Shown here piece by piece: positions 50,848-64,000 of a stretch of DNA of 64,000 nt. The stretch is from Clostridia bacterium. Lineage in GTDB: Bacteria; Bacillota; Clostridia; Christensenellales; CAG-138. The stretch is taken from contig JAGACA010000018.1 of the NCBI GenBank assembly GCA_017614315.1, positions 11,944 to 75,943 of the forward strand, given 5' to 3'. How positions within the stretch are numbered: position 1 is the first letter of the stretch; each line of letters opens with the position of its first letter. Under the pieces are notes generated by a model, which was given only the letters and a program-made list of their open reading frames with translations, was not told the DNA's origin and did no database searches. Both the position numbers and the translations under genes were made by a program.

Positions 50848-50924
50848 GCGCCCTTGGCTCAGCTGGATAGAGCGTTTGGCTACGGACCAGAAGGTCGGGG
50901 GTTCGAATCCCTCAGGGCGCGCCA
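50848..50924 (+). tRNA. tRNA-Arg (anticodon ACG), CCA encoded
   Basis: The cloverleaf was folded by hand. The acceptor stem is GCGCCCT/AGGGCGC, the D arm is GCTC-AGCTGGATA-GAGC, the anticodon stem is TTGGC/GACCA with loop CTACGGA, and the T arm is GGGGG-TTCGAAT-CCCTC. Confidence 0.9.
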
Positions 50925-50970: not shown

Positions 50971-51115
50971 ATCTTTTCTTGCTCAAAAATTCCGCATATC
51001 CATTGACTTTTTTAACCACCTATTCTACAGGCTCCCATACCACATTTCTTTATCAAATCACCCTCGCATCCTCTGCAAAATGCCTGCTGAAAGCCCGCTT
51101 CAGGCTGCCAAAATT

Positions 51116-51155
51116 ATCACATTTTAGGCCGTTGTACCACATTTTACCACATTTT
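51116..51155 (+). repeat. Three iteron-like A(T/C)CACATTTT decamers (two in tandem)
   Basis: atcacatttt at 51116-51125, then accacatttt at 51136-51145 and again at 51146-51155. Confidence 0.7.
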
Positions 51156-51408
51156 CTTTACAACATAATGAGGATGTCGCCCATTTAACCGCACATAATG
51201 AACGACTGTTTTAATTCGTTCAGCTTCATTTTCGTGCCGCACAAATGCTCTCAATTGGCCCGGAACAGGCGATTTTGTCACTCATTTCGACTGTGTGTTT
51301 TGAGGAGTTTTTCCCCTCAAGCCAGGGCATAAAAATACAACTCAATAAGATTTCAACACGTGGTCTCCAAACATTCATTCGAAAAATATATTTGCCAAAA
51401 ATTTTTTT

Positions 51409-51436
51409 CAGGGGTTACACCCCCCTGTTTTTTTTG
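51409..51436 (+). terminator. Stem-loop with a T-run
   Basis: cagggg-ttacacc-cccctg followed by ttttttttt. Confidence 0.55.
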
Positions 51437-51649
51437 CCATAGAACTATAGAGGGACTTTTTCGGAGGAACCTCGTGCAGCTTGACAACCGAATAGCCAAC
51501 TCGGGCAACAGCATAATGATACTTCCGTCTTGAACGCTTCACAGCATTGGACGGCTCGGCACAGGCATGCGGGGATCTGAAATACGATATGCGTGAGGAC
51601 GACGGCCCGACGAGGCAGGAACAACTTCTACTTAATATGGAGGCACACC

Positions 51650-52474
51650 ATGACCAAAGTAATCGCAATAGCGAACCAAAAAGGTGGTGTCGGAAAGACC
51701 TCCACCACCGTGAACCTCGGTTCCGGACTTGTGAGGCAGGGATATGCGGTACTGGCGATCGACTTCGATCCTCAGGCCAACCTCACAATGGCGCTCGGGT
51801 TCAAGTCCCCGGACGATATGGAATACACGGTCTCAAACGTCCTTGCTAAGGCAATGGATGAAGAGCCGTTCGACCCGTCCGAGGGAATACTCACCACAGC
51901 CGAGGGCGTCGATCTGATGCCTTCGAGCATACAGCTCTCGCGTTTTGAGCTGGCTCTCGTCAATGAGATGAACCGTGAAAGCATGCTGCGTCAATTTGTT
52001 GATGCGGTAAAGCCGGATTACGACTATATTCTCATTGACTGTGCGCCTTCGCTGAACGTGCTCGCGCTCAACGCGCTCACGGCAGCGGACAGCGTACTCA
52101 TACCCACACAGCCGGAGTTCTTCTCAAATGCCGGCTTGCAGATGCTCCTTTCCACCGTTTCAAAGGTCAGGAAGAAGATAAACCCTTCTCTTAATATTGA
52201 AGGCGTACTTGTCACCATGATGGACAAGCGCCCGAACTTCACGAAGGAGCTCGTTTCGCAGCTCCGCGAAGCTTACGGCGGGGCTATCAAGGTATTCGAT
52301 ACTGAGATACCCAAGTCCATCAAGATGACCGAAAGCAACGTGAACGGAAAGAGCGTATTCGGATACAACCCGAAAAACCCGGTGGGGATCGCATACGAAG
52401 CCTTAACTCAGGAGGTGATCGAACATGACAAAGCCCTCGAGCGCAACGGGCGTGACGTTCAGGAAGCTCGATGA
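51650..52474 (+). CDS. parA: ParA/Soj family partition ATPase
   Basis: MTKVIAIANQKGGVGKTSTTVNLG deviant Walker A, plus ...YDYILIDCAPSLN... Confidence 0.9.
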   Translation: MTKVIAIANQKGGVGKTSTTVNLGSGLVRQGYAVLAIDFDPQANLTMALGFKSPDDMEYTVSNVLAKAMDEEPFDPSEGILTTAEGVDLMPSSIQLSRFELALVNEMNRESMLRQFVDAVKPDYDYILIDCAPSLNVLALNALTAADSVLIPTQPEFFSNAGLQMLLSTVSKVRKKINPSLNIEGVLVTMMDKRPNFTKELVSQLREAYGGAIKVFDTEIPKSIKMTESNVNGKSVFGYNPKNPVGIAYEALTQEVIEHDKALERNGRDVQEAR

Positions 52475-53375
52475 TCTCTTCGAGCCAACCGACGGAAGGG
52501 CTGATCTGCCCCAGCTTGCCGAGCTTGAAGTAGACAGTCTCGTTCCCTTCAAGGATCATCCTTTTCGGGAGTACCCCGAGGAAAAGATGCAGGAAATGAT
52601 CGAAAGCGTATCGGAACACGGTGTATTGAGCCCAATACTGGTCCGCCCGCATAAGTCGGGAGAAGGATATGAAATCATCGCAGGGCATAACCGTGTGGAA
52701 GCATGCAGGAGGGCGGGAATAAAAACGATACCTGCCACGATACGCGAATTGGATGACGATACCGCCACGATCGTAATGGTGGACAGCAATCTTCGCCAAA
52801 GGGACAAGCTCCTGCCAAGCGAAAAAGCTAAGGCGTACAAGATGAAACTTGATGCGCTATCTCGAAAACTTGGAAGGCCCTCAAAAAATGTGGGACAAGT
52901 TGTCCCGGATTTTCAGGGCAAGCGTTCAACTGAAATCGTAGGCGAGCAAGCTGGGGACAGTTATAAGCAGGTTCAGCGCTTTATTCGTTTGAATGATCTT
53001 ACGCCCGCGCTGCTCGGTTACGTCGACGACGGTACATTGGCGTTCAACCCCGCAGTTGAAGTCTCATATCTCGATTCCGCGGATCAGGAAGTCGTGTTCG
53101 AGATAATGGAGCGCGATCAGATCTCGCCCTCGCTTTCACAGGCGCAGAAGCTTCATAAGCTGGCGCAGATAGGAAGGATCAGCGAGGAGGCGATCGAAGC
53201 CGTAATGACCGTCGAAAAGCCCATGTACACTACTATCACGCTGAGGCAATCTACCGTTGCAAAGTATTTCCCCGCGGGCACTTCGGGACGAGACATAGAG
53301 AGAACGATCATCCGTTTGCTGGAAGAGTACAAACAAAAACGCGAAAACAAAAAGACCTATCAGGAGGAACGATAA
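52425..53375 (+). CDS. parB: ParB N-terminal-domain (ParB/Spo0J-like) protein
   Basis: ...HPFREY....M.EMIESVSEHGVLSPILVRP...GYEIIAGHNRVEACRRAG. It overlaps the parA end. Confidence 0.85.
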   Translation: MTKPSSATGVTFRKLDDLFEPTDGRADLPQLAELEVDSLVPFKDHPFREYPEEKMQEMIESVSEHGVLSPILVRPHKSGEGYEIIAGHNRVEACRRAGIKTIPATIRELDDDTATIVMVDSNLRQRDKLLPSEKAKAYKMKLDALSRKLGRPSKNVGQVVPDFQGKRSTEIVGEQAGDSYKQVQRFIRLNDLTPALLGYVDDGTLAFNPAVEVSYLDSADQEVVFEIMERDQISPSLSQAQKLHKLAQIGRISEEAIEAVMTVEKPMYTTITLRQSTVAKYFPAGTSGRDIERTIIRLLEEYKQKRENKKTYQEER

Positions 53376-53376
53376 T

Positions 53377-53853
53377 TTGACTCACAACACCGAAATCACG
53401 GAGCCCTGCATCGAAATGTGCGGCGTCTCCGCTCACAGGGGCAGGACAAGCCCCCTCAATCGTATCACAGCCGATCAGTATCTCAAAAAGGCCGATCTTG
53501 TCGGTAAGGACGGCGGCCTCAAATACGACAAGCTCATGCCCATGATCGACGATGCCGCCAATTGCCTGTACGACGGCTGCGTCGTCATCCGCAACAAGTT
53601 TCTCGAGGCTGCAAAGCTCCATGAATACAGGGAGATGTACCGTTTGCTCGTAGCGTCGTATGCATCTATCGACAAGGATGTGCCCTTTTACATCAGGGCT
53701 GTCGCCGGGCTTCACTCCGAAGGCTTCTGGCAGCTTTTTGCCGAACTCACCGCAGACAAGCTCGATCTCATTATCGAGCTTGCGATCGAGGAAGAGCTTG
53801 AGGATGAGGGTGGACTGGAAGATGATGGAGCTGCTGTGGGGATGACGGAATGA
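53377..53853 (+). CDS. Hypothetical element protein with acidic C-terminus
   Basis: The TTG start lies 9 nt after AGGAGG. The gene is tightly packed after parB. Confidence 0.5.
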   Translation: MTHNTEITEPCIEMCGVSAHRGRTSPLNRITADQYLKKADLVGKDGGLKYDKLMPMIDDAANCLYDGCVVIRNKFLEAAKLHEYREMYRLLVASYASIDKDVPFYIRAVAGLHSEGFWQLFAELTADKLDLIIELAIEEELEDEGGLEDDGAAVGMTE

Positions 53854-54137: not shown

Positions 54138-57100
54138 ATGAAGAAATACACCAGTTTCATCGCGCTGCTTCTTGCGGCGCTTTTCTGCGTAAGCCTCATC
54201 CCCATGAGCGCCTTCGCAAATACCGCTACCATTCGTCCCTACTCCGAGGGCACCGTTACGATACAGTCGGAGTATAACAACGCTTTCGACTACCTGGAGT
54301 ATTACTCGAGCGGCACATGGAAGGACCTCAACACTCCGAAGCACTGGATCGTCGAGACCGGCGAGATAGTCTACTGCGTCGAGCACTCCGAGGGCAACCC
54401 CCACGGCAACGGCTACACCGAGGCCTCGCCCTCCTCGCTCTTCGGGGCTATCACGCTCGAGGGCCTGCAGTCGATATTCATGTACGGCTATCCCTGCAAC
54501 CTTCCCGAAGGCTTTACCGAGGACGAAGCGCGTCAGGCGACCGCCAATGCGATCCGCTTCTGGCTCTCCGAGCAGGGTGAGCCCGGCTCCTTCAGCTTCA
54601 CGAACCGCCTTGCTCATCCCGATTGGATACGCGCCAAGTCCGGATATGAGCATGTGCTGACCTGGGCGGACGAGCTCCTCGAGCACGCCAGGAACAGGGA
54701 CACCATCACCCATAACATCACCTTTACTCCCTCCGAGCTTCAGCTTACCAAGAGCGGTTCGTCTTACACGGGCCAGACCCGCGTAACGCTCACCAACATA
54801 AACGGCGGTTATACGCTCAATACCTCCGAGCTTCCCGAAGGAGTAAGCGTTTCCGGTTACACCGGAACGGGTAACGATACGCTGACAATCACTGCGGCTC
54901 AGTCCCTCAACGGATCCTCCTTCGTACTTGCGGCCGAAGGCAGCGACTCCCGCTGTATCTCCAACATGGCGGCATACGTTCCGAACGGCGATGATCTCCA
55001 GAACGTGTTCATGTGCGCCACCACGACTCAGGTCGTTGCGACGGCTTCCGTCTCGGTCAACACCGAAGCGTTCGGCAGCCTCCGTATCGTCAAGAAGGGC
55101 GATGACGGCGCGCTTCTCGGCGGCGTCAAGTTCGGCATCTACTCCGACTTCGCATGTGAAAACCTCATCAAAGAAGTCACCACCCGTTCGAACGGAGTTG
55201 CCACTGCAAACGATCTTCCTGTTGGCGTCGTGTACGTAAGGGAGCTTTCCACCGTTGAGCCCTACTGGATCGACAATACTGTCTATACCGTCGAGATCCC
55301 GCTCAATGATTCTGTTGAGATAGAGATCGAAAACCAGAGCGCAAGGGGCCGCATTCGCATAGAGAAGACCGGCGAGGCGATGACCTCCGTCATAACTACC
55401 GAGACCGAATGGGGCACCGTCAATGCTCCCGCATACAGCGTGGGCGGTCTTGAGGGCGCGATGTTCCAGATACTCGATTCGGGCATGAACATCGTTGCGA
55501 CGCTCACGACCGACGAGTACGGCGTCGCCGAATCCGATTATCTCGATTTCGGAGACTATTACGTGGTCGAGGTCAAAGCGCCTGCAGGCTATATCATCGA
55601 TCCCGACGTCTATCCCGCTACCGTCAGCTATCAGGACGGCGATACTCCCGTCGTTGTCGAGACCGTTGAAGCCTACAACGAGCGTCAGCACGCTTCGATG
55701 AAGCTGCGCAAGATGACCGAGCGCTGGAACAGCAAGACCTTCGAGTTCGAGCCCATCAGCGGCGAGGGCTTCGTCTTCGGGCTCTACACCGCGGAGAACA
55801 TCGGCATCCTGCCCATGGATACTCTCGTCGAGGTGCTCATAACCAGCGACCGCGGCGTCGCTTCCACAACGAACGACCTGCCGGCCGGTCATTATTACCT
55901 CCGCGAGCTTTCGGCCCCCGATGACGCTATTTGGATGATCGAGGATTCCATGCCCGTCGATCTCACGGGAGACACCGAATACATCGAGAATTACTATTAT
56001 TTCTCGAATCCCATCGTGAACGAGATGTTCAAGGGCAATATCAAGGTATGGAAGCTCGATGAAGCCGAGCCCCATGCCGGTCTTCCCGGCGCTGTTTTCG
56101 AAGTTTACGACGATAACGGCGTGGTTTACTGCACCATGACGACGGATGCGACGGGCTGCGCGATGTCCTGTTATCTGCCTGTCGGTAATTACCATGTGCG
56201 TGAGATCCACGCTCCCGCAGGTTACGTGATCTCCGATGTGATATTCGACGTAACGATCACCACCGAAGACAAGGAGACCATCGTTCTGGAGTTCTACGAC
56301 CACAAGAACGATTTTACGTTCAATAAGACCGACGTTTCCACCGGTCTTCCCGTTGCAGGCGCAAGGTTCGAGATCTACCGTGCGGACGGCACACTTTACG
56401 CTTCCGTTACCACTGACGAAAACGGCGGCTTCGGTCTTGAAGCCATCCCCGCAGGTCATTACACGATGATCGAGGCAGAGGCTCCCGCGGGATACGCGCT
56501 TTCCCATCAGATCTACAGCTTTGACGTCGACGAACACGGCAATATCACCGGAGACACTTCCGTCACCGATGAGCCCACCGACCTCATCATCGACAAGCTC
56601 AATACCTACACCGGTCAGCCCTTTGCTGGTATCGAGTTCACGCTCCTGAACGCGAACGGTGAGATCGTCAGGACCCGTATGACGGCCAACGGCTGGCGCG
56701 TGCCCGACGATAACGGCGAAGAGAGCTTCTTTACCAACGAGAACGGTCACGTTGAGATCCGCTACCTTCCTGTCGGCGAATACACTCTTCTTGAGAACAC
56801 GCCCACCGGGTATGTCTCCGTTGGCACAGTTGCTGTAACTGTCGCAACCGATAACGGCATCAGCAACCCCGCACACATCACCGTCGAGAATACGCCCACC
56901 GGCCTCATAATCCACAAGATCGATCAGGAGACCGGCAATCCCCTTTCCGGCGCGGGCTTCCGCCTCAAGGTCAAAAACGGCCTCGGCTTTACGACTCTCA
57001 CCTTTGACCGCATGGACGACGGAAGTTACTTCTACAACGTGGACGGCGAGGGCGAGTATACCGACCTCATGGTCAACGGCATGGGCGACCTCGTGATCTA

Positions 57101-57380
57101 CGGTCTACCCGTAGGCTACGTATGGATCGAAGAGACCGTTACCCCCGAAGGTTACTTCCCCATTTCCGCCCAGAAGGTAGAGATCACCAATGAGACCACC
57201 TTTGCTTCTCCCATCGAGTTCGTCATTCGCAACAGCAAGTACGTCAAGCTCGGCCTTGACTCTGACTGGTGGGAGTTCCCTGCCCTTGTAGGCGGTATCA
57301 CCCTCGCTGTCGGCGGCGCAGCGGCATACATCATCATTGCAATGAAGCGTAAGAAGAGCAAGGAACCCGGGGAGGCGTAA
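54138..57380 (+). CDS. Large surface adhesin: signal peptide, putative thioester domain, about six Cna-B/SpaA-type (prealbumin-fold) repeats, C-terminal TM anchor
   Basis: Signal peptide (LLAALFCVSLIPMSAFA). The thioester-like Cys context is GEIVYCVEHSEG, with a downstream ARQATANAIRFW. Repeated G.[LIF].[IV].K.D...G.PL.GA.F.[LI] blocks end in ...LP.G.Y.[LV.]E...P.GY. The tail is ...ALVGGITLAVGGAAAYIIIAMKRKKSK. Confidence 0.8.
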   Translation: MKKYTSFIALLLAALFCVSLIPMSAFANTATIRPYSEGTVTIQSEYNNAFDYLEYYSSGTWKDLNTPKHWIVETGEIVYCVEHSEGNPHGNGYTEASPSSLFGAITLEGLQSIFMYGYPCNLPEGFTEDEARQATANAIRFWLSEQGEPGSFSFTNRLAHPDWIRAKSGYEHVLTWADELLEHARNRDTITHNITFTPSELQLTKSGSSYTGQTRVTLTNINGGYTLNTSELPEGVSVSGYTGTGNDTLTITAAQSLNGSSFVLAAEGSDSRCISNMAAYVPNGDDLQNVFMCATTTQVVATASVSVNTEAFGSLRIVKKGDDGALLGGVKFGIYSDFACENLIKEVTTRSNGVATANDLPVGVVYVRELSTVEPYWIDNTVYTVEIPLNDSVEIEIENQSARGRIRIEKTGEAMTSVITTETEWGTVNAPAYSVGGLEGAMFQILDSGMNIVATLTTDEYGVAESDYLDFGDYYVVEVKAPAGYIIDPDVYPATVSYQDGDTPVVVETVEAYNERQHASMKLRKMTERWNSKTFEFEPISGEGFVFGLYTAENIGILPMDTLVEVLITSDRGVASTTNDLPAGHYYLRELSAPDDAIWMIEDSMPVDLTGDTEYIENYYYFSNPIVNEMFKGNIKVWKLDEAEPHAGLPGAVFEVYDDNGVVYCTMTTDATGCAMSCYLPVGNYHVREIHAPAGYVISDVIFDVTITTEDKETIVLEFYDHKNDFTFNKTDVSTGLPVAGARFEIYRADGTLYASVTTDENGGFGLEAIPAGHYTMIEAEAPAGYALSHQIYSFDVDEHGNITGDTSVTDEPTDLIIDKLNTYTGQPFAGIEFTLLNANGEIVRTRMTANGWRVPDDNGEESFFTNENGHVEIRYLPVGEYTLLENTPTGYVSVGTVAVTVATDNGISNPAHITVENTPTGLIIHKIDQETGNPLSGAGFRLKVKNGLGFTTLTFDRMDDGSYFYNVDGEGEYTDLMVNGMGDLVIYGLPVGYVWIEETVTPEGYFPISAQKVEITNETTFASPIEFVIRNSKYVKLGLDSDWWEFPALVGGITLAVGGAAAYIIIAMKRKKSKEPGEA

Positions 57381-57527: not shown

Positions 57528-58241
57528 ATGCAAATAGAAATACTCGAAGCCACCAAGCCCGAGCAACTCTATACCTTCACGCAATCACAGCAGATCGCTT
57601 CGCAGACCGGGTGTTTGGGGCACTTCCGTGCGGACTTCGGTCCCGACGGTGACGAGTTCCATCCCTCCTGGGAGAATCAGCGATCGGATCTCAAGTCCGA
57701 CGCCTTCAAGGAACAGTTCAACGAGATAATCGACGAGCTGCGAAACGGAACGGATAACGGCAAGCTCTTCTCAACGAGGGCCAACCTCGCAAGGTTCTGC
57801 TTCAGGCATCCGACAGCGGCCATTGCGCAAGCGAAGGATTCCACCGCGTACCGCTTTGACGTCGGCGACTACGCCCACCTCATGCGGCTCAATTCCAACC
57901 GCGGTGATTACAACGTCTACATCTACGTTTACGTCGCCGATTGGCTGGATAAGCACATGAAGGAAGCGGAGAAGGGCTTAAAGTTCATCGATTCTCATTA
58001 CAACGAGCTTTTCCGAATGCCCGACGGAGGTCAGGTGCGCTTGACCTACCGTGACGGCAAGAGCGTCGTTCGCACGTGCCGCTACATAGACGATTATCAC
58101 TCGGAGATCGGCAGCAGCCTTTATCATATCTGCGAATTCGCCGAAATGTGCGAACAGTCCGGTATAAAGGTCGAACCCGTAACGCCAATCATACAGTCAA
58201 GGTCGAGAGAAACCGGCGAGATCGGTGGTGAAGAAAGATGA
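57528..58241 (+). CDS. Conjugative-element protein of unknown function (resembles LPD28/YodL-type polyvalent-protein-associated domains)
   Basis: 237 aa. The ...QTGCLGHFRADFGPDGDEF...W... pattern was recalled from ICE-encoded proteins. This family assignment is uncertain. Confidence 0.5.
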   Translation: MQIEILEATKPEQLYTFTQSQQIASQTGCLGHFRADFGPDGDEFHPSWENQRSDLKSDAFKEQFNEIIDELRNGTDNGKLFSTRANLARFCFRHPTAAIAQAKDSTAYRFDVGDYAHLMRLNSNRGDYNVYIYVYVADWLDKHMKEAEKGLKFIDSHYNELFRMPDGGQVRLTYRDGKSVVRTCRYIDDYHSEIGSSLYHICEFAEMCEQSGIKVEPVTPIIQSRSRETGEIGGEER

Positions 58242-58345
58242 GAGTACTTGTAGTGGAACCGTATAAGAAACCATACGAGAAGGAGATCGATCCCGGGCTC
58301 GAAAGCTTGCAGCACGAGGTCGGAGGCGATATTGAAGTCGTTTAA
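58238..58345 (+). pseudogene. Truncated DUF3846-family gene (first ~35 codons only)
   Basis: MRVLVVEPYKKPYEKEIDPGLESLQHEVGGDIEVV then a stop. Full-length family members continue for roughly 70 or more further residues. Confidence 0.6.
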
Positions 58346-59532
58346 GAACGCCCAACGCATTGCGAACGCTGACGTCAGTCGGAGCTTCGATGCTTACGCC
58401 CTTCAGGGCCGAGACCATGAGCCACAGCACGGGCGTCTATTTCGGACGCAACAAGGTCACAAAAGGCCTCATTTTCATCGACAGAACGTTGCTGATGAAC
58501 GGCAACGGCTTCTATCTCGGAACTTCCGGTTCGGGCAAGTCGTTCTTTGCAAAGGATGAGATAGCTTCGCTGATACTCAGGAACATGGCGGACGTGCTTA
58601 TTCTGGATCCCGAGCGTGAATACGTATCTCTCATACGCAGACTTGGCGGTACTGTGGTCAGTCTCTCCGCAGGATCCGACAACCATATCAATGCGCTGCA
58701 TCTGTCGCCAGGAGATACCGAGAACGAAAAGCCTTTGGATATGAAATCGCAGTTCGTTCAGACGCTCGTTGAGCAGATAATGGGCAGCGCGATAACGACC
58801 GCTCAGGAGAAATCCGTGATAGACCGCTGCCTTAACAACGTGTTCAGGAACTTCTTTGCGAATGGATGGAAAGGCCCGATGCCGACTCTCATGGATTTCT
58901 ACAAGGAGCTCCTGTGGCAGAAGGAGCCGGAGGCAAAGAACATTGCTCTTGCGATAGAGCTATTCACAAAAGGCTCGCTCAACACCTTCGCACAGCAGAC
59001 CAACGTAGATTTGAACAACTCCGCGATATGCTTCGATATCCGGGATATGGGCGAGCACTTAAAGCCCGTAGCCATGCTCGTGATACTTGATACGATCTAC
59101 AACCGAATCCTTTACAACAAGGCAAGAGGCAGAGCGACCTACGTGTTCATAGACGAGATATACCTGTTCTTCTCGAACGAATTCAGCACGAATTTCCTGT
59201 TCGAGCAATGGAAGCGAGCGAGGAAGTACGGGGCCTACTATACGGGCATCTCGCAGAACGTAGAAGACCTGCTGCAGTCCCAGCGTGGAAGGGCCATGCT
59301 CGCCAATTCGGAATTCGTCACGCTGCTCAATCAGGCAGCGACTGATCGACTCGAGCTCTCGCAGGTGCTAGGGATCTCCGATACTCAGCTCTCATATGTG
59401 ACGAATGCGGAGATCGGAACGGGGCTTCTCGTCTGCGGAGGATCCATAGTTCCCTTCGAGAACAAATTTCCGGAGAGTACCTCGCTCTACAAGTTAATGA
59501 CGACAAAGCCCGCCGAGTCAATTGCAGGCTGA
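58336..59532 (+). pseudogene. VirB4-like conjugal transfer ATPase, C-terminal half only (5' truncated)
   Basis: Walker A GTSGSGKSF lies about 57 aa from the ORF start, and Walker B is YVFIDEIY. The N-terminal ~400 aa typical of the family are absent. The frame opens at 58336, directly after the DUF3846 fragment. Confidence 0.7.
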
Positions 59533-62155: not shown

Positions 62156-62472
62156 TACTGCCAGGCGAAAAGCTCTTTAACTGGATACAATTGCCTAAAT
62201 AGCTTTCGAAATTAGGAAATGAGTTCCATATTGATTCACTCTAAGACATAGTCTATAGAGTCTAGAACTATGTGGAACTCGTGTCTATCAAAAAAACAGA
62301 TTGGTATTATCATAAACATAATAGGGCAGATGTTCGCCAATGCAACATTCTCACGCAGTGTCTAAGCAATGATGTTGGTTTCGAAGTTGAGTCAATTAGT
62401 TCTAATATTCATTTTCCTAGCTTCCATAATAATCATGAGCGCTTTTATGAAAAAGCAATTATTATGATACTA

Positions 62473-63066
62473 TTATTGATTGTTGGCTATTATTTTAATT
62501 ATCTCTACGCGTTCATTAATGGTTTTTTCAAAGGTTTCACAATTATATGATTGGATAATCATGGAAAAATCGTTTGTTGAATAAATCTCTAACAGTTTTT
62601 TTGATGCAGAAACAACCTCGTTTTTATATACAGCATTAATAGAATGAGTAACAGACTCTAACGTATTTACATTTTTTAATTCTCCGTTTTCCCAAAAATG
62701 ATCCGATATAAACCATATTGCGTTTTTCCAAACTCGGAATCGAAATAGCAATTCAAAATCATCGGGCTGTAAATTATTACAAGATAGGTTCCTGATCTCA
62801 GGAATAATGATATTATAAAAAACTGTAACAGCATTTATTTCTTTTATTTTGTCAGTATCAATCGATCGTCTTAAAATAATGGCTGTAATAATTCTATGTC
62901 TGAAAAAAAGAATATAAACAATTATGGTAATCCCTACAACAAAGTATGCGATTACTTTATAAGTCATATTGCTGTCAAAGACAATAGGAATATAAGCCAA
63001 GATTATTGTTTGTATTATTGCAACAAGAGAATCAGTAGCTTTTGAGACAGATGATTTGTTCTTCAC
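62473..63066 (-). CDS. Hypothetical 2-TM membrane protein (AT-rich cassette, gene 2)
   Basis: The GTG start lies 5 nt after GGAGGT. There are two N-terminal TM helices (LVAIIQTIILAYIPIVF and VIAYFVVGITIIVYILFF) and then a ~130-aa soluble domain with no motif I recognise. Confidence 0.6.
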   Translation of the reverse strand: MKNKSSVSKATDSLVAIIQTIILAYIPIVFDSNMTYKVIAYFVVGITIIVYILFFRHRIITAIILRRSIDTDKIKEINAVTVFYNIIIPEIRNLSCNNLQPDDFELLFRFRVWKNAIWFISDHFWENGELKNVNTLESVTHSINAVYKNEVVSASKKLLEIYSTNDFSMIIQSYNCETFEKTINERVEIIKIIANNQ

Positions 63067-63076
63067 TTTTTACCTC

Positions 63077-63613
63077 CTACCAAATATTATTATAGATTTT
63101 TAACTTGTTCTCGCCACAAGCATTATCTAATGCAATAATTTCATCATAAATTGTACGAAAATAGTTTAGATGAATACCATCAATAGTATTATTGTTGCCA
63201 TTTTCATTTTGATTATTATAGACTACTATATATATGATTTGCTCTCTGAGATAGTTTAGTATGTATTCTGAATAACTGATATCATTTATTCTGGGAGCAA
63301 TATCCGCCTTTTGCTCATAACCAATCATAAGCTCGTAAAGTGTTTGCAAATAGATACAAATGTTAATAGGAAACTTACCATGTCTGTATTTTCGCAGACA
63401 ATTATACTGCCTTCTTGATATACAGTTTGAGCTTTCATCATACCTATTAGCTGTTTCAACAAACTTTGGTTTTAAAAAACTATTAAACATTTTTTTGTAT
63501 TGAATATTCCCCTCGGATAGATATCCTTCTATGGAAGCAATATATCTTAATACAGAGATCATGTTTTTATTTTCAGCATTACAAATTTGTTTTATTCTTT
63601 CATATTTAGGCAT
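63077..63613 (-). CDS. Hypothetical soluble protein (AT-rich cassette, gene 1), possibly containing a degenerate XRE-like HTH
   Basis: AAGGAGGA lies 9 nt upstream of the ATG. The segment ISRRQYNCLRKYRHGKFPINICIYLQTLYELM loosely follows the XRE HTH spacing. The stop codon is 7 nt (63070-63076) before the gene 2 start codon. Confidence 0.6.
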   Translation of the reverse strand: MPKYERIKQICNAENKNMISVLRYIASIEGYLSEGNIQYKKMFNSFLKPKFVETANRYDESSNCISRRQYNCLRKYRHGKFPINICIYLQTLYELMIGYEQKADIAPRINDISYSEYILNYLREQIIYIVVYNNQNENGNNNTIDGIHLNYFRTIYDEIIALDNACGENKLKIYNNIW

Positions 63614-63673
63614 ATTAAGAGTATCCTCCTTATTCTTTACACATTCCTCTAAATTGTTTTTTATTCGCGGTAA

Positions 63674-63889
63674 TCAGTTTTGTCGATCATCGCCATAGTA
63701 AGCTTGTCTATAAAGCGATAATCCATCTGCGTTTTCGCTTCCCGTGATCATGTACATGAGCGCGGAGCCGTTGTAGAAGTATTCCGTTACTGTGCTCCCT
63801 ACGGTCTTGCTCAGTCTTAACCCGTCCTCGTTGTAGGCGGAGGCAATGCTTATAACGTTGCCGTTGGCATCGTAAACGTTGGTCGGATG
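63674..63889 (-). pseudogene. Orphan RHS/YD-repeat protein fragment (no start codon, bounded by stops)
   Basis: The minus frame reads HPTNVYDANGNVISIASAYNEDGLRLSKTVGSTVTEYFYNGSALMYMITGSENADGLSLY..., which is YD-repeat periodicity. There is an in-frame TAG immediately upstream. Confidence 0.65.
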
Positions 63890-63931
63890 CTAATTTGGGG
63901 TGCACAAAGCTAAATGATAAAAAACGTAAAA

Positions 63932-64000
63932 TCACTTTTGAGCTTCAGATTCAGGTCCAATTAACCACCATTCTTTATCCAACTGATTAATAGTATCGTT
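63932..64000 (-). CDS. 3' end of an unidentified AT-rich gene (continues beyond the window)
   Basis: The minus frame reads ...NDTINQLDKEWWLIGPESEAQK then a stop at 63932-63934. Confidence 0.35.
   Translation of the reverse strand, partial: NDTINQLDKEWWLIGPESEAQK

What the first reader, a model, noticed from the sequence alone, without database searches (positions are those of the whole stretch)
62473..63613. AT-rich, tightly coupled two-gene cassette of unknown function in the island cargo region (top candidate for an undescribed accessory, defence or immunity module)
Directly after the sortase gene the composition falls sharply. A hand count of a 50-nt sample gives about 28% G+C, whereas the surrounding genome appears much more GC-rich by eye. 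This points to independent, recent acquisition. Two minus-strand genes have strong RBSs, and only 7 nt (63070-63076) separate the stop of gene 1 from the start codon of gene 2. Gene 1 encodes a 178-aa soluble protein with an Asn-rich loop and a segment (ISRRQYNCLRKYRHGKFPINICIYLQTLYELM) loosely spaced like an XRE helix-turn-helix. Gene 2 encodes a 197-aa protein with two N-terminal TM helices and a ~130-aa cytoplasmic domain. I recognise neither protein. A small possible sensor or regulator paired with a 2-TM putative effector, in the cargo slot of a mobile element, is a layout seen in abortive-infection and toxin-immunity-type modules. The neighbouring RHS fragment raises the alternative that these are orphan immunity genes of a polymorphic-toxin locus.
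Basis: inference. Interest (0 to 1): 0.7.

Follow-up and report, generated by a model that had tools for sequence, protein, structure and literature searches.

The report
Orphan two-gene membrane module in ICE cargo
Two tightly coupled, very AT-rich genes of unknown family (a small soluble protein plus a two-helix membrane protein) always travel together in the cargo regions of mobile elements of gut Clostridia, next to anti-phage or toxin genes, so they are a credible but untested candidate for a new bacterial conflict (defence-type) module.

Summary
Two minus-strand genes (63077-63613, 178 aa; 62473-63066, 197 aa) lie in a 29% G+C block inside a 57% G+C genome. The stop codon of the first overlaps the ribosome-binding site of the second; the gap is 10 nt, not 7. 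Both genes are real: dN/dS is about 0.25. In all 12 family members looked up a same-strand gene follows, and where enough of it was on the contig it is homologous to gene 2. Spacing is usually 6-14 nt (28 and 175 nt in three loci). The family is rare: 22 representatives among 1.84 billion proteins. It was not found in the phage, plasmid, IMG/VR or GTDB representative collections as searched. Neither protein matches Pfam, NCBIfam, PHROGs, PADLOC, PDB sequences or Foldseek libraries. The XRE helix-turn-helix idea is not supported. Only the window's element carries Rhs. The upstream Rhs piece is cut inside its YD core and has no toxin tip, so the orphan-immunity reading is weak. Other copies sit beside a dCTP-deaminase defence gene, a CARF/methyltransferase cluster, ankyrin and surface proteins, or FemAB, often near integrases and conjugation genes. 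Best reading (about 0.4): an autonomous conflict module with a soluble sensor or regulator and a 2-TM membrane effector. Function is untested.

The parts
63077..63613 (-). Gene 1. A 178-aa soluble all-helical protein. Its C-terminal tail, K-I-Y-N-N-I-W, is conserved but predicted to be disordered. Proposed role: sensor, regulator or partner subunit.
   Evidence: ORF. No family hit. AF2 pLDDT 76.6, pTM 0.76, six helices, tail pLDDT about 35. 22 family representatives, all 167-186 aa apart from three short fragments, none with an added domain. Alignment A5. dN/dS 0.25.
63067..63079 (-). Coupling junction. TAG stop (63079-63077) overlaps the GGAGG Shine-Dalgarno (63077-63073), followed by a 6-nt spacer before the GTG of gene 2.
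   Evidence: Sequence. The tggTAGGAGGt or tggTAAGGAGGt junction is conserved in L016, L010, L021, L029 and L020.
62473..63066 (-). Gene 2. A 197-aa membrane protein with 2 N-terminal TM helices (about 12-31 and 37-56) and a helical cytoplasmic domain of about 130 aa. Q19, P89, W113, N132, L158 and C176 are conserved. Proposed role: membrane effector.
   Evidence: ORF. Hydropathy. AF2 pLDDT 79. No Foldseek hit at E<0.8. Family alignments A7 and A9. dN/dS 0.25.
63614..63673 (-). 60-nt leader between the Rhs remnant stop and gene 1. It contains AGGAGG (63630-63625). No sigma-70-like promoter was found here.
   Evidence: Sequence. The promoter scan finds no minus-strand site upstream of 63613. In L021 and L030 the pair has its own upstream hairpin and promoter-like hexamers.
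62156..62472 (.). AT-rich non-coding tail of the foreign block, between the gene 2 stop and the convergent sortase gene stop. It holds the start of a probably spurious 92-aa antisense ORF (62272-62550).
   Evidence: G+C 0.24-0.38. It is not conserved in the L016/L019 copies of the cassette: blastn similarity ends inside gene 2. No Rfam hit or terminator.
63674..63892 (-). Context. Remnant of an Rhs YD-repeat core fragment. It has no start codon, no C-terminal shell plug and no toxin tip. This is the junction at which the AT-rich cassette abuts the Rhs locus.
   Evidence: Translation. Homologous to the 224-aa RHS_repeat fragment of L001.
63933..64000 (-). Context. 3' end of a 177-aa lipoprotein-like gene that follows an Rhs protein with an Ntox44 toxin tip. 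It is the presumed cognate immunity gene. The rest lies beyond the window end.
   Evidence: Translation is identical to the C-terminus of L004 679-1212. Ntox44 E=7.7e-12 on L004 92-688.

Best explanation
The two genes form an autonomous, horizontally mobile operon of a previously undescribed family. It belongs to the accessory conflict gene pool of low-G+C Clostridia.

Proposed working (inferred, not shown):
- Gene 1 is a cytoplasmic helical protein that acts as the sensor or regulatory partner.
- Its strictly conserved but intrinsically unstructured C-terminal tail (KIYNNIW) docks on the cytoplasmic helical domain of gene 2.
- Gene 2 is a 2-TM membrane protein with no catalytic-looking conserved residues.
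- On a trigger, such as phage or foreign-DNA invasion or loss of the labile partner, gene 2 is released or activated and compromises the membrane. This stops growth of the infected or cured cell.
- In short, it would work like an abortive-infection or toxin-antitoxin-like module with a membrane effector.

In this window the cassette came from a low-G+C donor. It sits in the cargo region of a tRNA-Arg-linked conjugative island, at a recombination scar that truncated an orphan Rhs fragment. It appears to have lost its own promoter.

Shown: the genes are real, they are coupled, they always occur together, their locations are mobile and patchy, and they have no known homologues.

Inferred: the interaction between the two proteins, the membrane action, and the defence or addiction role.
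For: Pair conservation. In all 12 family members looked up a same-strand gene follows gene 1, usually 6-14 nt downstream (28 nt in L030 and L033, 175 nt in L028). It aligns end to end with gene 2 wherever it is complete on the contig, is partial in L020 and L026, and only its first 24 codons lie on L029. Identity falls to 42%/25% and about 26%/26%.

Translational coupling. The stop/SD overlap is conserved.

Purifying selection. dN/dS is 0.25 for both genes.

Foreign composition. The pair is 0.27-0.38 G+C in every locus, whatever the host's G+C. In the window it is 0.29 against 0.57.

Only the two CDS are conserved between contexts. Flanks are unrelated and there are no terminal repeats.

Autonomous transcription unit elsewhere. 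L021 and L030 have an upstream hairpin and promoter-like hexamers.

Neighbourhoods:
- L033-L038: directly downstream of a PADLOC dCTPase (dCTP-deaminase defence) gene at E=3.3e-99 and an MBL protein matching PDC-M48B. Integrases, RepA_N, Phd-ParE and a T4 coupling protein lie nearby.
- L010: after a Type II MTase, a metallophosphatase, an ORC/Cdc6-like ATPase and a CARF6-like protein (E=7.5e-75), and before a CapP/M78-like gene.
- L030: between an ankyrin protein and an integrase, T4CP and MobL.
- Window and L001: a conjugation module (VirB4, NlpC/P60, sortase) and the Rhs toxin locus.

Rarity and patchiness. There are 22 representatives among 1.84 billion proteins. None was found by the pattern scans and tblastn searches of GTDB representative genomes, plasmids, phages or IMG/VR.

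No enzymatic signature. The conserved residues are mostly hydrophobic or structural.
Against: There is no sequence or fold similarity to any known defence, Abi or TA protein.

The defence-neighbourhood evidence is anecdotal. Two clear cases were seen among about eight distinct contexts, and no enrichment statistic was computed.

Some contexts are not obviously defence islands: FemAB with a two-component system in L016/L019, and Agr with an ECF sigma factor in L026.

The interaction between gene 1 and gene 2 was not modelled, because no complex prediction was available.

In the window no promoter was detected upstream, so the copy here may be poorly expressed or depend on read-through.

A cytoplasmic protein with a membrane partner also fits a plain regulatory pair.
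Confidence: 0.4

Rival explanations
1. Orphan immunity genes of a polymorphic-toxin (Rhs) locus. One or both proteins neutralise a toxin domain that has since been deleted or that competitors deliver. They would be kept as part of a heterogeneous polyimmunity array on a mobile element.
For: - In the window's element the pair lies at the distal end of an Rhs array. The array is Rhs-Ntox44 + lipoprotein, or Rhs-CT + ankyrin + Rhs fragment.
- Low G+C downstream of Rhs cores is classical for tips and immunity genes (established knowledge).
- Ankyrin immunity proteins and polyimmunity loci are described in PMC3482391.
- L030 also has an ankyrin protein just upstream.
- A 2-TM protein could protect against a membrane- or wall-directed toxin.
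Against: - The Rhs piece directly upstream stops inside the YD shell. It lacks the C-terminal plug and any toxin domain.
- Rhs is absent from every other context examined.
- There is no hit to any Pfam Imm family.
- Immunity genes normally shuffle singly, whereas these two are strictly linked, translationally coupled and co-diverging.
- The L001 and L030 ankyrin proteins are only repeat-level similar, at 23% identity, so there is no shared ancestral toxin locus.
Confidence: 0.17
2. A non-conflict regulatory or signalling pair. Gene 1 is a cytoplasmic regulator, possibly DNA-binding. Gene 2 is its membrane-anchored anti-regulator or signal receiver, by analogy with sigma/anti-sigma or membrane-sequestered transcription factors. 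The pair would control neighbouring accessory genes.
For: - A soluble protein is coupled to a membrane partner with a cytoplasmic domain.
- Neighbours in some loci are regulatory: a two-component system in L016/L019, and Agr, HTH_3 and an ECF sigma factor with DUF4367 in L026.
- The conserved residues have no enzymatic signature.
Against: - No HTH or other DNA-binding family or fold was detected in 22 members.
- The neighbouring genes differ completely between contexts, so there is no conserved regulon.
- Extreme rarity, foreign composition and location in MGE cargo fit a selfish or conflict module better.
Confidence: 0.18
3. A conjugation-related function of the island itself. The pair would be an entry- or surface-exclusion or mating-pair accessory system, encoded beside the T4SS, cell-wall hydrolase and sortase genes.
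For: The pair lies directly after VirB4, NlpC/P60 and sortase in the window. Conjugation genes (T4CP, MobL, RepA_N) are close in L030 and L034/L035. Exclusion proteins of Gram-positive ICEs are small membrane proteins encoded next to the hydrolase (established knowledge, ICEBs1 YddJ).
Against: - The pair is convergent to the T4SS operon.
- Its G+C (0.29) is far below that of the conjugation genes (0.51-0.55).
- The conjugation modules differ between contexts and are absent from several.
- Only the two CDS are shared between contexts.
Confidence: 0.07

Closest known systems
RexA/RexB of phage lambda and other two-gene abortive-infection systems with a membrane effector (for example lactococcal two-gene Abi systems such as AbiT)
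   Same: A small two-gene operon made of a soluble cytoplasmic protein and a small polytopic membrane protein. It is carried on mobile elements, has very low G+C relative to its host, and has a patchy distribution.
   Different: There is no sequence or fold similarity: PADLOC, Pfam, PHROGs and Foldseek are all negative. Gene 2 has 2 TM helices and a cytoplasmic domain of about 130 aa, unlike 4-TM RexB. Function is untested.
Type II toxin-antitoxin modules
   Same: The upstream gene is translationally coupled to the downstream gene. The upstream protein has a conserved, disordered C-terminal tail, as in many antitoxins. The location is on MGEs, next to Phd-ParE in L034/L035.
   Different: Both proteins are larger than typical TA partners. 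The putative toxin is an integral membrane protein. No DNA-binding domain was detected in gene 1. There is no homology to TA families.
Orphan immunity genes / heterogeneous polyimmunity loci of polymorphic toxin (Rhs) systems (Zhang et al. 2012, PMC3482391)
   Same: Position at the distal end of an Rhs array, after a truncated Rhs fragment. AT-rich. Unknown small proteins. Carried on a mobile element.
   Different: No toxin tip precedes them. There is no Imm-family match. The strict two-gene linkage holds in contexts without any Rhs or recognisable toxin.

Membership tests
Polymorphic-toxin (Rhs) immunity protein | Encoded immediately downstream of the toxin C-terminal domain it neutralises | tested here: not met
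   The upstream Rhs remnant (63674-63892) and its 224-aa counterpart in L001 end inside the YD core. They have no DPxG-type plug and no toxin domain. The Ntox44 tip already has its own downstream lipoprotein gene.
Polymorphic-toxin (Rhs) immunity protein | Recurrent genomic association with a toxin family across genomes | tested here: not met
   Rhs occurs only in the window-type element. The other contexts (L010, L016/L019, L022, L026, L033-L038) have no Rhs or recognisable toxin. L030 has only an ankyrin protein and surface proteins.
Polymorphic-toxin (Rhs) immunity protein | Sequence membership in a described Imm family | tested here: not met
   No Pfam hit at E<=1 other than noise, for either protein and for 22 gene-1 relatives.
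Polymorphic-toxin (Rhs) immunity protein | Binds and neutralises a toxin | not testable with these tools
   Needs co-expression or binding assays.
XRE-family helix-turn-helix regulator (gene 1) | Match to HTH_3/HTH_31-type profiles, or an HTH fold | tested here: not met
   No HTH family among 22 members at E<=1. hhalign against an HTH_3 protein gives probability 0.4%. The best Foldseek PDB hits are at E>=1, and TetR-type hits at E 3.4-6.9 are noise.
Known anti-phage defence systems (PADLOC-DB v2.0.0) | HMM match of a component protein | tested here: not met
   Zero hits at E<=1 for both window proteins. Two gene-2 relatives (L033, L030) gave none at E<=0.01.
Known anti-phage defence systems (PADLOC-DB v2.0.0) | Location in defence islands, next to known defence genes | tested here: inconclusive
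   Adjacent to dCTPase (3.3e-99) and PDC-M48B in L033. Adjacent to CARF6 (7.5e-75), a Type II MTase and a CapP-like gene in L010. Other contexts are not clearly defence islands, and no enrichment statistic is available.
Type II toxin-antitoxin module | Two small co-transcribed, translationally coupled genes on mobile DNA | tested here: met
   Stop/SD overlap with a 10-nt gap in the window, conserved in six other copies read at the junction. MGE contexts.
Type II toxin-antitoxin module | Homology to a known toxin or antitoxin superfamily, or a DNA-binding antitoxin domain | tested here: not met
   No hits in Pfam, NCBIfam or PDB.
Type II toxin-antitoxin module | Toxicity of one partner, relieved by the other | not testable with these tools
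   Needs expression assays.
HEPN-domain effector (gene 2 C-domain) | Conserved Rx4-6H motif and the HEPN four-helix fold | tested here: not met
   HEPN chains appear only at Foldseek E about 1, TM 0.19-0.28. No R...H pair is conserved: H123 and R108 vary across the family.

The most novel reading that the evidence does not exclude
The pair is a previously undescribed two-gene anti-phage or anti-plasmid abortive-infection system of gut Clostridia. Both proteins have folds with no significant Foldseek match. A soluble sensor uses a conserved C-terminal peptide (KIYNNIW) to hold a 2-TM pore-forming or membrane-perturbing effector in check until infection.
Probability: 0.3. Interest if true: 0.6.

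Novelty: new variant of a known kind. Interest (0 to 1): 0.5.

Why it matters
If the pair is a working defence or addiction module, it adds a new protein family pair to the repertoire of membrane-acting abortive-infection systems. Neither protein has a recognisable fold relative. It would come from anaerobic gut Clostridia, a group that is under-sampled in experimental defence-system screens. One subfamily (P0048) is listed in 284 blocks of the contig collection, including human-gut metagenome assemblies, so it may affect phage and plasmid dynamics in the microbiome. The locus also shows how foreign cassettes lodge in the recombination-prone ends of Rhs arrays on conjugative islands. If the pair is instead a regulatory or immunity pair, the interest is modest.

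Tried and rejected
- Family assignment. Pfam, NCBIfam, PHROGs and PADLOC on both proteins gave only sub-threshold noise (Wzy_C 0.0046, AmyA 0.18). Pfam on all 22 gene-1 relatives showed no recurrent family.
- PDB sequence profiles (A1, A3, A5, A7) gave nothing.
- Foldseek of both AF2 models against PDB, and of gene 1 against BFVD, gave best E of 0.8 or higher. The weak HEPN and TetR hits were rejected as noise.
- XRE HTH for gene 1 was rejected.
- Gene 1 and gene 2 as paralogues was rejected (hhalign probability 0.2%).
- The cassette as a transposon-like unit was rejected. There are no terminal inverted or direct repeats. Similarity to the L016/L019 copies is confined to the CDS.
- RNA element in the AT-rich tail: none in Rfam.
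- Positive selection on gene 2. The two alleles differ by 6 nt (5 amino-acid replacements) and 0 synonymous changes, against 1 synonymous change in gene 1. This is too few to be significant. More diverged pairs give dN/dS 0.19-0.25.
- Searches for genome, plasmid or phage copies found nothing: GTDB representatives, PLSDB, INPHARED, IMG/VR and JGI metagenomes with the A1 patterns.
- Shared ancestry of the ankyrin neighbours in L001 and L030 was rejected. They are similar only at repeat level.
Full report
**1. What is in the sequence**

Two ORFs lie on the minus strand: 63077..63613 (178 aa, ATG) and 62473..63066 (197 aa, GTG).

- Gene 1 is preceded by AGGAGG at 63630-63625.
- Its TAG stop (63079-63077) overlaps the GGAGG of gene 2 (63077-63073), and the GTG follows 6 nt later.
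- The gap between the genes is therefore 10 nt (63067-63076), not the 7 nt reported.
- G+C is 0.287 for the pair and 0.299 for the block 62156-63673, against 0.571 for window 1-61396. The edges are sharp: one lies at the 3' end of the convergent sortase gene and the other at about 63700.
- Gene 2 has two hydrophobic segments at about 12-31 and 37-56. These coincide with two long helices in its AF2 model (pLDDT 79).
- By the positive-inside rule the C-domain of about 130 aa is cytoplasmic (inference).
- Gene 1 has no hydrophobic segment. It is modelled as six helices (pLDDT 76.6, pTM 0.76), with a low-confidence Asn-rich loop at 133-145 and a low-confidence C-terminal tail.

**2. Surroundings**

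The window ends 387 nt upstream of gene 1. Contigs that encode exactly the same protein extend the picture.

The window is of the L004 type. In transcription order it reads:

- an Rhs protein whose tip is an Ntox44 toxin domain (E=7.7e-12);
- a 177-aa lipoprotein-like gene, whose last 22 codons are window 63936-64000 and whose TGA stop is 63933-63935;
- a 219-nt remnant of an Rhs YD-repeat fragment with no start codon (63674-63892);
- a 60-nt leader;
- gene 1, then gene 2;
- the convergent sortase, NlpC/P60 and VirB4-like genes.

A sister element (L001 type) has a different Rhs tip, an ankyrin-repeat protein and a 224-aa Rhs fragment, joined to the cassette at the identical junction. That fragment is homologous to the main Rhs up to '...YYNGSVLMYMITGS'. 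It then diverges and stops. It lacks the last 120 or so residues of the shell and has no toxin domain.

The cassette therefore abuts a break inside an Rhs core, not a toxin tip.

The island as a whole starts after tRNA-Arg (50848-50924). It carries ParA/ParB, a 1080-aa SpaA/thioester adhesin and a VirB4-like ATPase that is only 390 aa here, against 777 aa in L001.

**3. Are the genes real, and are they a unit?**

*Family size*
- The word-indexed search of 5.8 billion proteins found only 7 clusters for each protein.
- An exhaustive HMMER search of 1.84 billion representatives found 22 relatives of gene 1. Apart from three short fragments all are 167-186 aa, and none carries an added domain (alignment A5).

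*Linkage*
- I looked up the genomic place of 12 family members: P0001, P0003, P0004, P0007, P0015, P0018, P0021, P0022, P0023, P0025, P0029 and P0048.
- In every case a same-strand ORF follows gene 1. Where the contig is long enough it is about 185-217 aa.
- In most loci it starts 6-14 nt after the stop. The gap is 28 nt in L030 and L033, and 175 nt in L028.
- These downstream proteins align with gene 2 end to end wherever they are complete. They share the 2-TM N-terminus and conserved Q19, P89, W113, N132, L158 and C176. The copies in L020 and L026 are cut by the contig end, and only 24 codons of the L029 gene are visible, so that one was not aligned.
- The stop/SD overlap (tggTAGGAGGt or tggTAAGGAGGt) is itself conserved.

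*Selection*
- Between two moderately diverged copies (L016, L019), dN/dS is 0.25 for both genes.
- Between the two alleles of the window-type element, gene 1 differs by one synonymous change. Gene 2 differs by six nucleotide changes, all non-synonymous. This is suggestive but too few to test.

*What is shared between contexts*
- DNA similarity between the window cassette and the L016/L019 copies (72%) begins one base before the gene 1 start codon and ends inside gene 2.
- The flanks are unrelated.
- There are no terminal repeats.

*Transcription*
- In L021 and L030 the pair is preceded by a hairpin and promoter-like hexamers, so it is its own transcription unit there.
- In the window no promoter-like site was found upstream. 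This copy may depend on read-through.

**4. What the proteins are not**

- No hit in Pfam, NCBIfam, PHROGs or PADLOC.
- No recurrent Pfam family among 22 gene-1 relatives.
- No PDB sequence hit for any of four profiles.
- No Foldseek hit better than E=0.8 in PDB for either model, or in BFVD for gene 1.
- The XRE-like helix-turn-helix proposed for gene 1 is not supported.
- Weak HEPN hits for gene 2 (E about 1) come without a conserved Rx4-6H motif.
- The two families are unrelated to each other.
- Conserved residues are mainly aromatic or aliphatic, with no obvious catalytic set.
- The most striking conserved feature is the gene 1 C-terminus, K-[IL]-Y-N-[ND]-I-W. It is near-invariant in most of the family but modelled as disordered. 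That is the signature of a docking peptide (inference).

**5. Where the pair lives**

In every locus examined the pair has low G+C (0.27-0.38), whatever the G+C of its host.

| Locus | Neighbours |
|---|---|
| Window / L001 | Rhs array at the edge of a conjugation module |
| L033-L038 (P0048 type; listed in 284 blocks of the collection, human-gut contigs among them) | Directly after a cluster with an MBL protein (PDC-M48B, 2.3e-19), a 780-aa PADLOC 'dCTPase' dCTP-deaminase defence protein (3.3e-99), a DCD-like protein and a dUTPase. Integrases, RepA_N, Phd-ParE and a T4 coupling protein lie within 10 kb |
| L010 | After a Type II methyltransferase, a metallophosphatase, an ORC/Cdc6-like ATPase and a CARF6-like protein (7.5e-75); before a CapP/M78-like gene and what looks like another mobile element |
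| L030 | Between a 627-aa ankyrin protein (after giant CBM_2/DUF4474 surface proteins) and LRR_5, integrase, T4CP and MobL |
| L016 / L019 | Divergent from FemAB (plus a C39_2 peptidase in L019) and a two-component system |
| L022 | Unknown genes and a GNAT acetyltransferase |
| L026 | Agr genes, an HTH_3 protein and an ECF sigma factor |

No copy was found by the pattern scans of GTDB species representatives, or by tblastn of PLSDB plasmids and INPHARED phages, or by the pattern scans of IMG/VR.

**6. Interpretation**

*Established*
- This is a real, strictly linked, translationally coupled two-gene operon.
- It belongs to an undescribed and rare family.
- It moves between unrelated accessory regions, many of them on integrative or conjugative elements and next to conflict genes (anti-phage genes, polymorphic toxins, TA modules).

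*Most economical functional reading (confidence about 0.4)*
- It is a self-contained conflict module. The soluble protein senses or regulates, and the 2-TM protein acts on the membrane.
- That is an abortive-infection or TA-like logic, comparable in layout to RexAB or the two-gene lactococcal Abi systems.
- The interaction, the membrane action and the trigger are all inferred.

*Orphan Rhs-immunity reading (about 0.17)*
- It is weakened because no toxin tip precedes the pair, Rhs is absent elsewhere, no Imm family matches, and the two genes never separate.

*Other readings*
- A plain regulator plus membrane anti-regulator pair (about 0.18) cannot be excluded.
- A conjugation or exclusion role (about 0.07) cannot be excluded either.
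- The rest of the probability is 'something else'.

**7. History of the window's copy (inference)**

The window type and the L001 type share the identical Rhs-fragment/cassette junction but have different toxins upstream. So the AT-rich cassette was captured once, at a break in an orphan Rhs fragment. Later recombination at the Rhs locus exchanged the tips and immunity genes and shortened the fragment to the 219-nt remnant seen here.

**8. Novelty and score**

- There is no membership in any known family.
- The architecture resembles known kinds of two-gene conflict modules, so I classify it as a new variant of a known kind.
- It is a good candidate for experimental testing. However, it is one of very many uncharacterised cargo gene pairs, and the functional evidence is by association only.
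- Interest: 0.5.

Noticed in passing
window 50848-50924 and 51000-53400: tRNA-Arg (ACG) is followed at once by a G+C dip (0.48) and ParA/ParB genes (51593-52474, 52425-53375). This is probably the integration site and left end of the island that carries the cassette.
   Followed up: partly
window 57528-59532: The VirB4/TraG-P-loop ATPase is only 390 aa here (58360-59532, TTG start), against 777 aa in the sister element L001. It is preceded by an unassigned 237-aa ORF (57528-58241) and a 1080-aa SpaA/thioester-domain adhesin (54138-57380). PrgI and TrbL genes, seen in L001, were not noted in the window. The conjugation module looks rearranged or degenerate.
   Followed up: partly
window 63674-63892 (-): A remnant of an Rhs YD-repeat fragment with no start codon. 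In L001 the same fragment is a 224-aa ORF. Both end at the same junction with the AT-rich cassette, inside the YD shell.
   Followed up: yes
window 63933-64000 (-) and L004 92-1212: Just beyond the window end lies an Rhs protein with an Ntox44 toxin tip, followed by a 177-aa lipoprotein-like gene with no family hit. That gene is presumably its immunity protein. Zhang et al. 2012 list no immunity family for Ntox44.
   Followed up: partly
window 62272-62550 (+): A 92-aa antisense ORF overlaps the 3' end of gene 2 by 78 nt. Gene callers called it on several contigs. Its only hit is sub-threshold (DUF2645, E=0.008), and the region is not conserved in the L016/L019 copies. It is probably spurious.
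   Followed up: partly
window 62473-63066 versus L001 4209-4802: The two alleles of gene 2 differ by 6 nt, all non-synonymous (L14I, Y25F, L99K, L136S, S138Y). Gene 1 differs by one synonymous change. This may reflect diversifying or relaxed selection on the membrane protein, but the changes are too few to test.
   Followed up: partly
L010 4783-9645: A four-gene low-G+C cluster: Type II Dam-like methyltransferase, 420-aa metallophosphatase (weak match to PDC-S60), 604-aa ORC/Cdc6-like ATPase, and a 325-aa CARF6-like protein (E=7.5e-75). No CRISPR-Cas genes are in view. It may be a defence system in its own right.
   Followed up: no
L033 2326-9837: A seven-gene cluster in human-gut contigs: MBL-fold protein (PDC-M48B), three unknown proteins, a 780-aa dCTP-deaminase defence protein (PADLOC dCTPase, 3.3e-99), a 430-aa DCD-like protein and a 148-aa dUTPase/DCD. 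This is an unusually elaborate nucleotide-depletion locus. In L035 three tandem integrase genes have inserted into it.
   Followed up: no
L019 3391-5188: A FemAB-family protein lies next to a Peptidase_C39_2 protein, upstream of the pair. The layout recalls bacteriolysin and FemABX-type immunity pairs. This resemblance is from memory and was not tested.
   Followed up: no
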